Virus record (IMG/VR): IMGVR_UViG_2526164688_000041
Strand: one strand, 5' to 3'
Length of the DNA stretch: 12,518 bases
From: a virus
Lineage: Duplodnaviria; Heunggongvirae; Uroviricota; Caudoviricetes
The translations under genes were made by a program, and so were the position numbers. The notes under the pieces are model-generated. The model made no database searches, was not told the origin of the DNA, and was given only the letters and a program-made list of their open reading frames with translations. Shown in pieces: positions 4,997-7,511 of this stretch. Position 1 is the first letter of the stretch, and each line of letters begins with the position of its first letter.

Positions 4997-5604
4997 TGGT
5001 TGCCTCCTTTGCGAATCTGTTCCGCCCATTCTTCTAGGGATTTCTCCGCATATTCACCGGACAGGCCATCAATCGGGTGTGGTTCATTAGCCAACTCTTC
5101 TTTCGCTGACAGAATCATGCGTGTAACGTCGAAAACTTCACGTAAAGACTTATTGATAAATCCGTGATTGAAAGCAGCAGCAAGACGGCTTGCGGTATAG
5201 TTAATCCCCTCGTTGCGTGCTTCCGCACGAATTTCAGCCAGGAAAGCATCGGTGGCTGGAGTTTCGCTGTGGTGCAGGGCATCGTTGATAATCATTGCAG
5301 CAACACCAGCCTGCCCTGCATCCGTGACCGACACATGCTCAAGAGTTACGGCCATTGCGTGTTTCAGCCCCGCATTCTCCGCCGCCAGCGCCGAAAACTT
5401 CTCGTGTGCCAACTTAACAGCTGCTACAGCCTGCTTAATTGACTCAATCGCTTTCTGTTGGTCTTCGGACAGAGCCAAAATCTTGGCCTCCGCTTCAGCA
5501 AATTTACGCACCAGATATTCAGCATTTGTTTCATTCACTTTCAGATCTCGTGGTACACATTTCCCGCGAAGAAACCCTTCCATTTCGAAAACATTCATGC
5601 GCAT
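4993..5604 (-). CDS. Ead/Ea22-related protein, paralog 3 (shares central and C-terminal modules with paralog 2)
   Basis: 203 aa, ATG at 5604. Shares ..ALAAENAG(L/I)K.., ..ETP(A/T)TDAFLAE(I/V)RA.. and C-terminal ..Q(I/L)RKGGNQ with paralog 2, but has a different N-terminus. Confidence 0.6.
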   Translation of the reverse strand: MRMNVFEMEGFLRGKCVPRDLKVNETNAEYLVRKFAEAEAKILALSEDQQKAIESIKQAVAAVKLAHEKFSALAAENAGLKHAMAVTLEHVSVTDAGQAGVAAMIINDALHHSETPATDAFLAEIRAEARNEGINYTASRLAAAFNHGFINKSLREVFDVTRMILSAKEELANEPHPIDGLSGEYAEKSLEEWAEQIRKGGNQ

Positions 5605-6131
5605 GTGCGTAACTCCGATAACTCGTTAAAGCGCTCCATAAACATCCCGTAGGCATGGCTCGGAGCCAGTGGAATAACTTTGAACATTTCTGTTGCCGGG
5701 ATACCTTCCAGTACTGGCCAGAAAGAGCCATCATCAAGCCCGAGATCGCGGCGTTCGGTTGCCAGCATGATGAGATCGGCATATTTCACAGGCGTGCTCA
5801 TAACCGGGGGTAACCCGTATTTCTCACGGATTACGGCGTCTATTTTTTCTTCCATCCGTTTATAGTCAGGAAGAAGGCGTTTCAGTGGAGCGGGAATATC
5901 CTGGCAATACGCTTCTGTTGCATCATGCATTAACGCTTCAAAAGCAAATTCCTGCGGCACCAGCTGGCTGCAAAGAACCGCATGTTGGGCGACGCTGTAG
6001 AAGTGCGAAAGATGACCGGCAAAGCGACAGATATTTGAAAGGGAAACCGCGATATCGTTAATATCGATGTCGTCTTTATTTATCCTGTCATAATAAAAAT
6101 GCTTCCCAGAAAAAGTTTTGATAAATGACAT
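5595..6131 (-). CDS. HD-domain phosphohydrolase, YfdR-like (CPS-53 prophage family)
   Basis: ATG at 6131 with a GGAGA SD gives 178 aa, which matches my recollection of K-12 YfdR length. HD-domain signature is present: ..RFAGH..H..(28 aa)..MHDATEAY..D.. The ORF-track start (GTG 6158) adds 9 residues with no SD. Confidence 0.75.
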   Translation of the reverse strand: MSFIKTFSGKHFYYDRINKDDIDINDIAVSLSNICRFAGHLSHFYSVAQHAVLCSQLVPQEFAFEALMHDATEAYCQDIPAPLKRLLPDYKRMEEKIDAVIREKYGLPPVMSTPVKYADLIMLATERRDLGLDDGSFWPVLEGIPATEMFKVIPLAPSHAYGMFMERFNELSELRTCA

Positions 6132-6224
6132 TTTGTTCTCCACGTATATGCGCTGCACCGCGCTGAATTCTGGTAAAAAGAATCCCTCACCATCCGGCGA
6201 TTATTGAGTAAATTACGTTTCCAT

Positions 6225-6246
6225 AAATGCCCCCGCAGGGGCATTT
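6225..6246 (-). other. Perfect stem-loop (9-bp stem AAATGCCCC / GGGGCATTT, 4-nt loop) between the yfdQ-like stop and the yfdR-like start; weak terminator or RNA processing/stability element
   Basis: Read directly from sequence. GC-rich core of the stem is followed by only about 3 U on the minus-strand transcript, so it is a weak intrinsic terminator at best. Confidence 0.5.
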
Positions 6247-6258
6247 GCAGTAATGAAA

Positions 6259-7083
6259 TCAGGCGGTGAAAGTACCAATAAAGGTTTCTACTTTGCTGTC
6301 CTTGAATTTCTCAACAAGCAGATCACGAAATTCGTTAGCCATTTCTTCCTGCACCGCCTCCAGCTGAATAATGCGCAGAACCAGTACAGGACGATCGCCA
6401 GTGATAATGCTGAGGCGTAATTTAAACGGACGTTCTTTCAGACCTTCAAACGGAACGCATTTAAATTCAAATGCCACTGGCATAATATCTTTGGTCTTCG
6501 CTTCGACAGACTCCATCAGGGAGCGTTTGCCGCTGAAGTCATTATCTTCAAAATCAGCGGTCTGGTTTGCTTCAATCGTGATTTTACGGACCGCCGCAGC
6601 CGCTTTTGTTGCCTGAATAGCGTCACCATTAGCATCAAAGCCCACAAGGTAGTCGGCCCAGTCTTCAATCCATTCTGCCAGTGACTTCTGGGAGTTACGC
6701 TCGCCGTTAACAGACAACAGGGCAGAGAACGGTGCTGTCTTTTTCAGTTTGAGAGTGGCGGTGTTATCTGCGTGACCTGGTTCATCAATAGTACCCAGGT
6801 TAAGCACACTGACTGCTCGCATATTATCGGCATCGATAAAGCAGCGGGTGCCTTCATCTGCAAGATCTTTAGAATAACGGGTAAAGTCATCGATGCTGGC
6901 AGTGGAAAGCGCACCACGGAAACGGAAGCGATTTAAATTAAATTTTTCCAGATCATGAATGCGGAAATTCTCAGGCAATGCCACAGCATCGGCACCAATC
7001 TTACTGATAATTTCATTAACACCCTGAGCAGAAATAAGGGCATGGATTTGATTAATTGCGGTTGCGTCTAAGTTCTGAGACAT
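6259..7083 (-). CDS. YfdQ-like protein (DUF2303 family), function unknown
   Basis: 274-aa ORF with ATG at 7083 and a GTGAGGA SD. Its length and its position directly upstream of the HD-domain gene mirror the yfdQ-yfdR arrangement of the E. coli K-12 CPS-53 prophage (from memory). Confidence 0.65.
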
Positions 7084-7148
7084 AATAAGTCCTCACTATA
7101 TTAAGATATTCAGTGATGAGATAAATAATCAGTTAATTAAGAACGATA

Positions 7149-7511
7149 TTAATGACCTTCTGCGCGGAGTTTTCCGTCAGGTTCACCGGCAAGAGTCAGT
7201 AATTGTCCCTGGTCTTCCTGCAGAATAGTCAGGCGACCACCGCGATTGACATACATCGGCGTTTCGGTGGTGTCTTCTTCAGAAATTTTCCCGCGGTTAG
7301 TCGGGCGAACATATGAGAGTTTGTGTTTGATTTTCACACGGTTCTCATCAAACGGTTCGATTTCCAGGTTGAGCGAGACCTTACCTTTGGTTTTCGTGTT
7401 CATCACACCGGAAGCGACTTCACTGAGAACTGCGCCGATTTTGGTTTCAAATACGCCGCCGTCCAGCTCCCCGATAAATGCCTGCACATCAGTACTGCGT
7501 TCGCTAGCCAT
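7149..7511 (-). CDS. YfdP-like small early protein (120 aa), first gene of the early-left operon
   Basis: ATG at 7511 with a GAGGAG SD 7 nt upstream gives MASERSTDVQAFIGELDGG.. (120 aa). The 62-codon upstream extension in the ORF track starts at TTG inside a structured inverted repeat and is rejected. Confidence 0.55.
   Translation of the reverse strand: MASERSTDVQAFIGELDGGVFETKIGAVLSEVASGVMNTKTKGKVSLNLEIEPFDENRVKIKHKLSYVRPTNRGKISEEDTTETPMYVNRGGRLTILQEDQGQLLTLAGEPDGKLRAEGH

What the first reader, a model, noticed from the sequence alone, without database searches (positions are those of the whole stretch)
5595..7511. First three genes of the early-left operon are a YfdP/YfdQ/YfdR-like module with an HD-domain phosphohydrolase; no recognisable recombinase or anti-RecBCD genes
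Where lambdoid phages usually place N, kil, gam and the recombination genes, this prophage has a 120-aa protein, a 274-aa DUF2303-like protein and a 178-aa HD-domain protein (H..HD..D motif visible). Nothing in the early-left operon within the window resembles Red-beta/Erf/RecT, an exonuclease or Gam. My recollection of published work on the homologous K-12 CPS-53 yfdQ-yfdR cluster is that YfdR interacts with DnaA and that overexpression of the cluster inhibits replication initiation; this needs verification. The module may therefore act on host replication or nucleotide pools and remains mechanistically undefined.
Basis: partly seen in the sequence, partly recalled or inferred. Interest (0 to 1): 0.55.

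Follow-up and report, generated by a model that had tools for sequence, protein, structure and literature searches.

The report
Known yfdP-yfdQ-yfdR prophage early genes
These three genes are near-identical copies of the E. coli K-12 prophage genes yfdP, yfdQ and yfdR, and the missing recombination genes match a phage class already described in 2025, so the finding is correct but not new, though what YfdP and YfdQ do is still unknown.

Summary
Window 5595-7511 (minus strand) encodes proteins of 120, 274 and 178 aa. They are 98%, 99% and 97% identical to K-12 CPS-53 YfdP, YfdQ and YfdR. They are the first recognisable genes downstream of the cI-like repressor.

No Red-beta/RecT/Erf, exonuclease or Gam family is detectable in the early-left ORFs scanned.

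The missing Rec module is a published class of Chi-rich phages that use host RecBCD, and that paper names this gene trio (PMC12315714). The window fits the class: 5 Chi sites against 0.39 expected.

What I add:
- The unit is 2+1. yfdP sits directly upstream of yfdQ in 87 of 87 diverse loci; yfdR is present in only 48.
- The YfdR HD metal-binding residues are conserved.
- YfdP and YfdQ models match no solved fold in the libraries searched.
- An entry not found in the paper library, PDB 9o7m, holds 36 YfdQ chains from a Xanthomonas phage.

The proposed mechanism, early host-replication takeover, is inference. Novelty: already known. Interest is low to moderate.

The parts
7149..7511 (-). yfdP: 120-aa protein of unknown function (family PF27127 in precomputed annotation). 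It is the obligate upstream partner of yfdQ.
6259..7083 (-). yfdQ: 274-aa DUF2303 protein of unknown function.
   Evidence: Pfam PF10065 at E = 2e-92. 99% identical to K-12 YfdQ. PDB 9o7m 'YfdQ Protein' at E = 1e-44. No other fold match. 1783 clusters at 50% identity; the 150 listed are all single-domain.
5595..6131 (-). yfdR: 178-aa HD-domain 5'-(deoxy)nucleotidase; the K-12 orthologue binds DnaA.
   Evidence: 97% identical to K-12 YfdR. H50, H69-D70, E73, D78 and D119 are conserved. Profile search hits Atu1052 (2gz4) at E = 3e-28 and YfbR (2paq) at E = 0.006. phrog_318 dNMP phosphatase at E = 9e-110.
7512..8233 (-). 722-nt stretch between the repressor gene and yfdP. It presumably holds the leftward early promoter/operator and a leader.
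   Evidence: No gene annotated in the identical DEC5D copy. Conserved at 80% identity or more in 125 phage records. Sequence read. The 84-aa and 122-aa ORFs have no PHROG hit; a 49-aa ORF at 7526-7675(-) hits phrog_33599, function unknown.
8196..8213 (-). Terminator-like hairpin just after the repressor gene: AGCCACC-AGAA-GGTGGCT followed by TTTTCA on the minus strand.
   Evidence: Scan; sequence read.
8234..8926 (-). cI-like repressor (HTH plus S24 peptidase), upstream of the early-left genes.
   Evidence: Pfam Peptidase_S24 at 6e-19 and HTH families. A repressor of this type lies upstream of yfdP-yfdQ in 52 of 87 loci.
4993..5604 (-). Chimeric ORF overlapping the yfdR stop by 10 nt. Its first 45 aa are 89% identical to K-12 YfdS; the rest is Ea22/Eae-like. 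The DUF551 part of YfdS is absent.
   Evidence: tblastn. PHROG hits, functions unknown. No Pfam hit above threshold.
3591..5029 (-). Two Ead/Ea22-like genes (4316-5029 and 3591-4319).
   Evidence: Pfam PF13935 at E = 1e-27 and 6e-30.
2445..3610 (-). Two further early-left ORFs. One is a 178-aa unknown (3074-3610). The other is a 210-aa protein ending in a truncated DUF551 (2445-3077).
   Evidence: phrog_9263 and phrog_60, functions unknown. DUF551 match covers only profile positions 1-16 of 68. No PDB or NCBIfam hit.
387..1961 (-). [quoted passage not shown]
   Evidence: phrog_539 excisionase. Pfam Phage_integrase and Arm-DNA-bind_2.
2081..11738 (.). Span holding five Chi octamers (GCTGGTGG) at 2081, 9517, 9863 and 11731 on the + strand and 10139 on the - strand.
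   Evidence: 5 found against 0.39 expected; 0 of 200 shuffles reach 5. The related complete phage mEp460 has 20 against 2.0 expected.
11188..12027 (+). Only replication gene in the window. The N-terminal part hits O-like initiator families and residues 154-252 hit a DnaD-like helicase-loader family. No separate helicase-loader gene follows within the window.
   Evidence: phrog_270, phrog_8540 and phrog_1701. The same arrangement occurs in SfV, ST64B and mEp460.

Best explanation
**Shown.** The segment holds the orthologues of E. coli K-12 CPS-53 yfdP, yfdQ and yfdR. They sit at the head of the leftward early operon of a lambdoid prophage whose early region resembles mEp460, SfV and ST64B. The prophage belongs to the published class of lambdoid phages that carry no recombination module and no RecBCD inhibitor and are enriched in Chi sites.

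The three genes are two units.
1. yfdP-yfdQ is an invariably coupled pair found in phages and prophages of many Gammaproteobacteria. Neither protein has a relative of known function, and neither model matches a solved fold in the libraries searched.
2. yfdR is an independently distributed phage HD-domain phosphohydrolase with an intact metal site. Its K-12 orthologue is a low-affinity 5'-nucleotidase and binds DnaA domain I.

**Inferred.** When the repressor is inactivated, the operon is transcribed early. YfdR occupies the Phe46 surface of DnaA that DiaA and DnaB use. With help from YfdQ and another early-left protein, this suppresses new rounds of host oriC initiation. Host DnaB/DnaC and precursors are then available to a phage that encodes only one replication protein. 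The YfdR phosphatase site acts on (d)NMPs in parallel. YfdP-YfdQ probably acts as a protein complex built around a large YfdQ homo-oligomer. Its biochemical activity is unknown.
For: **Identity.**
- 100% DNA identity to an annotated yfdPQR locus.
- 97-99% protein identity to K-12.

**Experiments on the K-12 orthologues** (PMC4776307).
- YfdR binds DnaA in a Phe46-dependent way.
- yfdQ + yfdR + (yfdS or yfdT) in multicopy inhibits initiation in vivo, and extracts do so in vitro.
- This is restated in PMC12122000.

**HD site.**
- H50, H69-D70, E73, D78 and D119 are invariant or nearly so across 17 diverse homologues.
- A family profile hits Atu1052 at E = 3e-28 and YfbR at E = 0.006 over the HD..E..D..P.P.K segment.

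**Phage class.**
- No Rec or Gam family is detected.
- Chi: 5 against 0.39 expected in the window; 20 against 2.0 expected in mEp460, 16 on one strand.
- The class, with this gene trio, is described in PMC12315714.

**Pairing.**
- yfdP is directly upstream of yfdQ in 87 of 87 loci; yfdR is present in 48 of 87.
- Pairwise identities of P and Q correlate at r = 0.90. In the 47 loci that have R, the values are P-Q 0.85, Q-R 0.71 and P-R 0.68.
- The YfdR family occurs in 333 phage records and YfdQ in 184.

**Early-left position.** A cI-like repressor lies upstream in 52 of 87 loci.

**Replication module.** Only one replication gene is present. The same is noted for phage LLS in PMC12315714.
Against: - The replication phenotype comes from multicopy or overexpression experiments. 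Deleting yfdQRST in K-12 changed neither initiation nor HU resistance.
- Purified YfdR alone did not inhibit the in vitro initiation assay.
- yfdP was dispensable for the phenotype although it is never separated from yfdQ. The phenotype therefore may not reflect the native role of the pair.
- The window lacks yfdT and has only a 45-residue YfdS N-terminus. The published minimal gene set is therefore incomplete here.
- YfdR relatives occur in phages of Bacillus, Caulobacter and Rhizobium. DnaA binding need not be conserved in those relatives.
- Pull-downs gave no sign of strong binding of YfdQ, YfdS or YfdT to YfdR or DnaA.
- No direct evidence exists that YfdP and YfdQ interact.
Confidence: 0.5

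Rival explanations
1. YfdP-YfdQ, with or without YfdR, is an unrecognised recombination or ssDNA-handling module. [quoted passage not shown] YfdQ would form rings or filaments on DNA as strand-annealing proteins do.
For: - It occupies the genome position of the Rec module.
- In other phages it sits beside SSB, Erf, RecT/exonuclease or YqaJ genes.
- PDB 9o7m holds 36 YfdQ chains, so a large oligomer is likely. Its example chain is labelled C, so chains A and B could be something else.
Against: - The pair co-occurs with complete Rec modules: PA2 has Gam-like, RecT, exonuclease and SSB, and CP2 has Erf, exonuclease and SSB.
- Zheng et al. make the same argument using ArgO145.
- hhalign of the YfdQ profile against Erf and RecT gives probability 0.1.
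- Both proteins are acidic, with pI 5.0 and 5.4.
- Chi enrichment points to reliance on host RecBCD.
Confidence: 0.1
2. The genes are counter-defence or nucleotide-pool genes. YfdR hydrolyses (d)NMPs or a nucleotide signal. YfdP-YfdQ forms a large oligomeric sponge or decoy against a host immune system. On this reading the DnaA effect is a by-product of overexpression.
For: - The HD catalytic residues are under clear conservation across a family present in 333 phage records, including Bacillus, Caulobacter and Rhizobium phages.
- The genes sit at an early accessory position right after the repressor.
- YfdQ also occurs in CP2-like Xanthomonas phages, which I recall being described as virulent; that recollection was not checked here.
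- YfdQ is a compact stand-alone protein that is multimeric in 9o7m.
- The chromosomal deletion has no replication phenotype.
Against: - There is no hit to PADLOC models, although that library holds defence systems rather than anti-defence proteins.
- No experimental link to any defence system was found in the paper searches.
- YfdR has much lower nucleotide affinity than YfbR, and its deletion did not change CMP yield.
Confidence: 0.2
3. The genes are lysogen-benefit genes. They would be expressed from the prophage to raise host stress tolerance rather than serving lytic growth.
For: - In K-12 the yfdO/yfdP spacer is the strongest genomic SELEX target of the stationary-phase regulator SrsR, and yfdPQ mRNA is detectable in growing cells (PMC9181523).
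- CPS-53 genes contribute to H2O2 and acid tolerance (cited).
- The module is retained in 56% of complete E. coli genomes.
Against: - In intact phages the genes lie behind the repressor gene and its terminator, in the lytic early-left operon.
- The SrsR box array is not present in the window: 6 loose matches against 5.8 expected, none upstream of yfdP.
- The pair also occurs in CP2-like phages that I recall being virulent.
- CPS-53 is a decayed prophage that has lost its repressor region.
Confidence: 0.1

Closest known systems
E. coli K-12 CPS-53 (KpLE1) yfdP-yfdQ-yfdR(-yfdS-yfdT) cluster (Noguchi & Katayama 2016, PMC4776307)
   Same: - Same three genes in the same order.
- 98%, 99% and 97% amino-acid identity.
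- Same intergenic spacing.
   Different: - K-12 continues with yfdS (DUF551) and yfdT, one of which is needed for the replication phenotype.
- The window has no yfdT and only a 45-residue YfdS N-terminus fused to an Ea22-like ORF.
- K-12 has lost the repressor upstream. The window keeps the cI-like gene and a 722-nt leader.
'No Rec module, high Chi' lambdoid phages (LLS functional type; ST64B, phiNP, LLS) of Zheng, Casjens, Davidson, Amundsen & Smith 2025 (PMC12315714)
   Same: - The early-left operon starts with yfdP, yfdQ and the HD gene.
- There is no SSAP, exonuclease, SSB or RecBCD inhibitor.
- Chi is enriched and mostly on one strand.
- There is a single O-like replication gene.
   Different: - Only 12.5 kb of the prophage is visible, so genome-wide Chi density and the nin region cannot be checked here.
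- RecBCD dependence of growth is untested for this element.
- Window YfdQ is 57% identical to the ST64B homologue.
E. coli YfbR 5'-deoxynucleotidase (PDB 2paq) and Agrobacterium Atu1052 (PDB 2gz4), HD-domain phosphohydrolases
   Same: - The H...HD...D metal ligands are present.
- The HDxxE(x4)D-P-P-K segment aligns with YfbR.
- The whole length aligns with Atu1052 at E = 3e-28.
   Different: - It is not a YfbR orthologue: 19.9 bits against a 122-bit cut-off.
- Pfam YfbR-like and HD_3 scores fall just below their gathering scores.
- Nucleotide affinity is reported as much lower than that of YfbR, and YfdR has a DnaA-binding activity not known for YfbR.
DnaA domain I binders that modulate initiation (DiaA in E. 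coli, HobA in Helicobacter)
   Same: YfdR uses the same DnaA Phe46 surface and competes with DiaA and DnaB.
   Different: - The fold is unrelated: YfdR is an HD phosphohydrolase.
- It is phage-encoded.
- It acts as an inhibitor rather than a stimulator.
- It needs additional phage proteins in vivo.

Membership tests
DUF2303 / YfdQ family (Pfam PF10065) | Full-length match to the family HMM above the gathering score | tested here: met
   309.7 bits against a cut-off of 26.6; residues 7-272 match profile positions 2-269 of 269. 99% identical to K-12 YfdQ.
DUF2303 / YfdQ family (Pfam PF10065) | Stand-alone protein of about 270 aa preceded by a yfdP-like gene (a feature derived here, not a curated criterion) | tested here: met
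   The full-length members among the 150 best cluster representatives are about 250-300 aa, with no extra domains. yfdP is directly upstream in 87 of 87 loci, including the window.
YfdP family (Pfam PF27127) | Sequence membership | tested here: met
   98% identical to K-12 YfdP. All 120 listed homologues carry precomputed PF27127. The local Pfam copy lacks the model, so one search gives no hit. phrog_204 at E = 2e-49.
HD-domain metal-dependent phosphohydrolases | H...HD...D metal-binding residues | tested here: met
   H50, H69-D70 and D119 are present and are invariant or at least 90% conserved in 17 homologues. They align with the corresponding segments of Atu1052 and YfbR.
HD-domain metal-dependent phosphohydrolases | Pfam HD-family HMM above the gathering score | tested here: inconclusive
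   YfbR-like scores 24.3 bits against 25.9, and HD_3 scores 17.0 against 22.5. The family profile nevertheless hits the HD protein Atu1052 at E = 3e-28.
YfbR 5'-deoxynucleotidase equivalog (NCBIfam NF003009) | Score above the curated equivalog cut-off | tested here: not met
   19.9 bits against 122. YfdR is a distant paralogue-level relative, not YfbR.
K-12 YfdR (DnaA-binding prophage protein) | Orthology to b2361 | tested here: met
   172 of 178 residues identical with no gaps. Same gene neighbourhood.
K-12 YfdR (DnaA-binding prophage protein) | Binds DnaA domain I and inhibits initiation together with YfdQ and YfdS or YfdT | not testable with these tools
   This is known only from experiments on the K-12 proteins. 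The window lacks yfdT and a complete yfdS.
Phage single-strand annealing proteins (Red-beta/RecT, Erf, Rad52-like, Sak4, gp2.5) | Sequence or fold similarity to any of these families in an early-left ORF | tested here: not met
RecBCD inhibitors (lambda Gam, P22 Abc2) | Sequence similarity in an early-left ORF | tested here: not met
   No Pfam or PHROG family of this kind among the early-left ORFs scanned, the shortest of which is 84 aa. ORFs shorter than that were not scanned.
'No Rec module, high Chi' lambdoid phages (LLS functional type) | Lambdoid early-left operon without SSAP, exonuclease, SSB or inhibitor | tested here: met
   for the window. The closest complete relative, mEp460, also has none in this operon apart from a DnaQ-type exonuclease next to xis. 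Zheng et al. do not count that type of nuclease as a Rec module gene.
'No Rec module, high Chi' lambdoid phages (LLS functional type) | Chi (GCTGGTGG) density above that of the host, with strand bias | tested here: met
   Window: 5 in 12.5 kb, or 1 per 2.5 kb, against 0.39 expected; 4 lie on the + strand. mEp460: 20 in 44.5 kb, 16 on one strand, none between 1.2 and 23 kb. E. coli has 1 per 4.6 kb.
'No Rec module, high Chi' lambdoid phages (LLS functional type) | Growth enhanced by host RecBCD | not testable with these tools
   This needs plaque or burst assays on recBCD mutants.

The most novel reading that the evidence does not exclude
YfdP-YfdQ is an obligate two-protein machine with folds unlike any characterised protein. 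It is built on a large YfdQ homo-oligomer and conserved from Escherichia to Vibrio, Pseudomonas and Xanthomonas phages. On this reading it is the real effector of a phage host-replication takeover, for example by diverting DnaB/DnaC or blocking oriC for phages that encode no helicase loader. The HD protein YfdR would be an add-on adaptor to DnaA in the enterobacterial lineage.
Probability: 0.15. Interest if true: 0.6.

Novelty: already known. Interest (0 to 1): 0.27.

Why it matters
The trio is among the most common prophage gene sets in E. coli. It matched 3012 of 5426 complete genomes. It heads the early operon of a whole class of temperate phages, including Stx-converting and serotype-converting Shigella phages. 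Two of its three proteins still have no known activity.

Working out what the invariant YfdP-YfdQ pair does would fill a real gap in lambdoid phage biology. So would establishing whether YfdR's DnaA binding is its natural role. Both could explain how phages that lack both a helicase loader and a recombination system take over the host.

As a scan finding it adds nothing new. The genes, their DnaA link and the missing Rec module are all published. The only new points are the strict P-Q coupling, the 2+1 structure of the cluster, and the existence of a solved YfdQ structure.

Tried and rejected
**Fold searches.**
- Neither search gives a functional lead.

**Strand-annealing protein hypothesis.** Rejected for three reasons: the hhalign results, the fold searches, and co-occurrence with full Rec modules.

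**Defence-related function.** PADLOC gave no hit.

**Domain fusions.** A profile search of 1.84 billion cluster representatives found 1783 clusters, with no fused architectures among the best 150. A few proteins carrying both PF10065 and PF27127 are 96-99% identical to E. coli sequences. They look like deletion or frameshift artefacts.

**PDB 9o7m.**
- No paper was found.
- It is absent from both fold libraries.
- No YfdP-like chain and no CP2 ORF36-like chain exists in the PDB.
- Its sequence is 98.8% identical to Xanthomonas phage MET23-P3.

**First viral-contig scan.** It returned 80 identical E. coli copies and was useless for diversity. It was replaced by the one-genome-per-species scan.

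**SrsR boxes of the K-12 yfdO/yfdP spacer.** They are not present in the window above chance.

**Plasmids.** Only 23 records hold YfdQ, and several are as long as whole chromosomes. The family is therefore not plasmid-borne in any meaningful way.

**Zimmerman et al. 2008, the primary source for YfdR enzymology.** It could not be read. The activity statement rests on its paraphrase in PMC4776307 and PMC10870394.

**ORF 3074-3610.** No Pfam, NCBIfam or PDB hit.

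
Full report
**1. What is in the sequence**

The window is a lambdoid prophage. Its left end is an integrase (387-1673, minus strand) that abuts a truncated fimD gene.

Reading leftward from the cI-like repressor (8234-8926, minus; HTH plus S24 peptidase), the order is as follows:
- a terminator-like hairpin (8213-8196);
- a 722-nt stretch with no convincing gene (7512-8233);
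- yfdP (7149-7511, 120 aa);
- yfdQ (6259-7083, 274 aa);
- yfdR (5595-6131, 178 aa).

Each gene has a good Shine-Dalgarno sequence. The gaps between them are 65 and 127 nt.

Downstream lie these genes:
- a chimeric ORF with a YfdS N-terminus and an Ea22-like remainder;
- two Ea22-like genes;
- a 178-aa ORF of unknown function;
- a protein with a truncated DUF551;
- a 92-aa ORF of unknown function;
- the excisionase and the integrase.

The finding's coordinates and protein lengths are exact.

**2. Identity**

The 1917-bp segment is 100% identical to a stretch of E. coli O55:H7 DEC5D that RefSeq annotates as yfdP, yfdQ and yfdR. A match is present in 3012 of 5426 complete E. coli genomes.

The proteins are 98%, 99% and 97% identical to K-12 CPS-53 YfdP, YfdQ and YfdR.

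- YfdQ is a full-length DUF2303 protein (E = 2e-92).
- YfdP belongs to the recently created family PF27127.
- YfdR matches PHROG 318, "deoxyribonucleoside 5' monophosphate phosphatase" (E = 9e-110).

The flanking leader is 98.8% identical to phage mEp460. The same gene order, cI - leader - P - Q - R, occurs in SfV and ST64B.

**3. The HD protein**

H50, H69-D70, E73, D78 and D119 are present. They are invariant or at least 90% conserved in 17 homologues, from enterobacterial prophages to Pseudomonas-group genomes and phage.

A profile of the family hits the structural-genomics HD protein Atu1052 (2gz4) at E = 3e-28. It hits YfbR (2paq) at E = 0.006, over the segment that carries HD, the catalytic Glu and the substrate Asp.

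YfdR is not a YfbR orthologue: it scores 19.9 bits against a 122-bit NCBIfam cut-off. It falls just below the Pfam gathering scores for YfbR-like and HD_3.

**4. The recalled literature is correct**

Noguchi & Katayama 2016 (PMC4776307) isolated yfdQ-yfdR-yfdS-yfdT as a multicopy suppressor of hda-185 over-initiation. Their results were as follows:
- yfdP is not required.
- Purified YfdR binds DnaA, and DnaA Phe46 is important for the binding.
- YfdR moderately inhibits DiaA-DnaA and DnaB-DnaA binding.
- Extracts containing YfdQRST inhibit oriC unwinding in vitro, but purified YfdR alone does not.
- Deleting yfdQRST has no effect on initiation.

The same paper says YfdR has much lower nucleotide affinity than YfbR. 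Later work from that laboratory still describes YfdR as a prophage inhibitor that competes with DnaB for DnaA domain I.

One caveat is specific to this window. It has no yfdT, and it has only the first 45 residues of YfdS, fused to an Ea22-like ORF. The published minimal gene set is therefore not complete here.

**5. The missing recombination genes are a known phenomenon**

Pfam and PHROGs find no SSAP, exonuclease, SSB or Gam/Abc2 family among the early-left ORFs scanned.

Zheng, Casjens, Davidson, Amundsen & Smith 2025 (PMC12315714) analysed 325 lambdoid genomes. They defined a class with no Rec module, the "LLS functional type". Such phages carry many Chi sites and grow better with host RecBCD.

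That paper explicitly notes three things:
- The early-left operons of LLS, ST64B and phiNP begin with homologues of "yfbR, yfdQ and yfdP".
- The cluster also occurs in a phage with a full Rec module, so it is unlikely to be a hidden recombinase.

I tested the Chi prediction.
- The window has 5 Chi octamers against 0.39 expected. None of 200 shuffles reached 5. Four of the five lie on the + strand.
- mEp460 has 20 against 2.0 expected, 16 on one strand, and none between 1.2 and 23 kb.
- This resembles the LLS pattern of 23 sites, 20 in one orientation and clustered toward the right end.

Like LLS, this phage type has one replication gene and no separate helicase loader. That gene's N-terminal part hits O-like initiator families and its C-terminal part hits a DnaD-like family.

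**6. New detail: the cluster is 2+1**

I examined 87 diverse loci: 80 from a one-genome-per-species collection, six phages and the window. A yfdP homologue lies directly upstream of yfdQ on the same strand in all 87. The hosts include Pseudomonas, Marinobacter, Hahella, Pseudoalteromonas, Proteus, Xenorhabdus and many Enterobacterales.

The Vibrio, Pseudomonas and Xanthomonas phage versions are recognisably YfdP. Identity is 33-47%, and hhalign gives probability 99.2.

yfdR is present in only 48 of the 87 loci, and it is the next gene in 39. Conversely, the YfdR family occurs in 333 phage records, among them Bacillus, Caulobacter and Rhizobium phages. YfdQ occurs in 184 records.

Pairwise identities of P and Q are correlated at r = 0.90 over all 87 loci. 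In the 47 loci that also carry R, the values are 0.85 for P-Q, 0.71 for Q-R and 0.68 for P-R.

The commonest other neighbours are these:
- a cI-like repressor upstream (52 loci);
- a divergent CII/YmfL-like gene (38 loci);
- integrases and excisionases;
- an Rv2179c-like 3'-5' exonuclease (15 loci);
- PrtN (12 loci);
- occasionally SSB, a YqaJ exonuclease or a C5 methylase.

YfdQ is essentially absent from genuine plasmids.

**7. What YfdP and YfdQ might be**

The AF2 models are of moderate confidence (pLDDT 76 and 77).
- YfdQ is a two-lobed alpha/beta protein. Invariant residues include RxRxRG, PGHxD, EDW and several Arg and Glu.
- YfdP is one long helix, three long antiparallel strands and a highly conserved C-terminal segment that is poorly ordered.

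Neither model has a meaningful match among solved structures. The YfdQ family has 1783 clusters at 50% identity. The best 150 show no fused domains, and their full-length members are about 250-300 aa.

The one solved relative is PDB 9o7m, "YfdQ Protein". It has 36 chains of 274 aa and matches at E = 1e-44. Its sequence is 98.8% identical to a CP2-like Xanthomonas phage protein. I found no paper for it, and it is not in the fold libraries. It shows only that YfdQ is likely to form a large assembly.

**8. Most likely mechanism and its status**

*Shown.* The identity of the genes is shown. So are the intact HD site and the membership of the Chi-rich class that lacks a Rec module. The obligate P-Q pairing is shown. 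DnaA binding and multicopy initiation inhibition are shown for near-identical K-12 proteins.

*Inferred.* On induction the operon is expressed early. YfdR, assisted by YfdQ and another early-left protein, blocks the DnaA domain I surface used by DiaA and DnaB. This damps host initiation to the benefit of a phage that brings only one replication protein.

The native role of P-Q remains open. yfdP is dispensable for the only phenotype known, and that is the main weakness of the model.

Three rivals are kept at low to modest probability, with tests listed for each:
- a hidden recombination module;
- a counter-defence or nucleotide-pool function;
- a lysogen stress benefit.

**9. Verdict**

The observation and the interpretation are both right, and they are already in the literature. 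The remaining interest lies in the unknown biochemistry of a very common and strictly paired gene couple. This scan cannot resolve that.

Noticed in passing
window 1-386: The window starts with the first ~113 codons of the type 1 fimbrial usher gene fimD. Homology to intact fimD stops at about position 340-347, and the integrase gene follows. The prophage therefore appears to be inserted in fimD and to truncate it. In the identical genome copy the remnant is annotated as a 'FimD/PapC N-terminal domain-containing protein'.
   Followed up: partly
window 10185-10370 (+): Rfam finds an isrK Hfq-binding RNA (10185-10261, 62 bits) and a C4 antisense RNA (10283-10370, 75 bits) back to back. They lie inside the long ORF 9825-10970, whose C-terminal part hits Rha-like and anti-repressor (Ant) PHROG families. 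From memory, a c4 RNA ahead of an antirepressor gene is the arrangement of the phage P1/P7 secondary immunity region. That comparison was not checked.
   Followed up: no
window 7512-8233 (-): A 722-nt gene-poor stretch lies between the repressor terminator and yfdP. It is conserved at 80% identity or more in 125 phage records, including 34 Klebsiella phages. A 49-aa ORF just upstream of yfdP (7526-7675) hits phrog_33599, function unknown. A hairpin at 7549-7530 sits immediately before the yfdP ribosome-binding site. The promoter, operators and any antitermination site were not located.
   Followed up: partly
window 4993-5604 (-): This is a mosaic gene. Residues 1-45 are 89% identical to K-12 YfdS, and the rest is Ea22/Eae-like. 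The DUF551 domain of YfdS is missing. The start overlaps the yfdR stop by 10 nt, as yfdS does in K-12.
   Followed up: partly
window 2445-3077 (-): This 210-aa protein ends only 16 residues into a DUF551 domain (profile positions 1-16 of 68). Related prophages carry a complete DUF551 protein followed by an Rv2179c-like 3'-5' exonuclease. That exonuclease is absent from the window, which suggests a recombination or deletion junction near 2400-2450.
   Followed up: no
window 3074-3610 (-): This 178-aa early-left ORF has strong PHROG matches of unknown function (phrog_9263, E = 1e-122) but no Pfam, NCBIfam, PADLOC or PDB hit. By eye it contains a D...E-x-K pattern (PDAMGF...LIEAKC) reminiscent of PD-(D/E)xK nucleases. 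No tool result supports this reading.
   Followed up: partly
window 11188-12518 (+): The replication module appears to be a single gene. Its N-terminal part hits O-like initiator families and residues 154-252 hit a DnaD-like helicase-loader family. A PerC/YfdN-like regulator follows directly, with no helicase-loader gene. The same arrangement occurs in SfV, ST64B and mEp460, and it is noted for phage LLS in PMC12315714.
   Followed up: partly
PDB 9o7m (outside the window); closest phage Xanthomonas phage MET23-P3, OK913680.1 27843-28622: A solved structure named 'YfdQ Protein' holds 36 chains. It comes from a CP2-like Xanthomonas phage protein that is about 38% identical to the window's YfdQ. 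No publication was found in the paper library, and the entry is absent from the fold-search libraries. The example chain is labelled C, so chains A and B may be another molecule.
   Followed up: partly
L169 (phage mEp460, NC_019716.1) 1-44510: The 20 Chi sites are very unevenly placed. Two lie in the terminase genes, none lies between 1.2 and 23 kb (the structural genes), and 18 lie in the right half. Sixteen are on the + strand.
   Followed up: no
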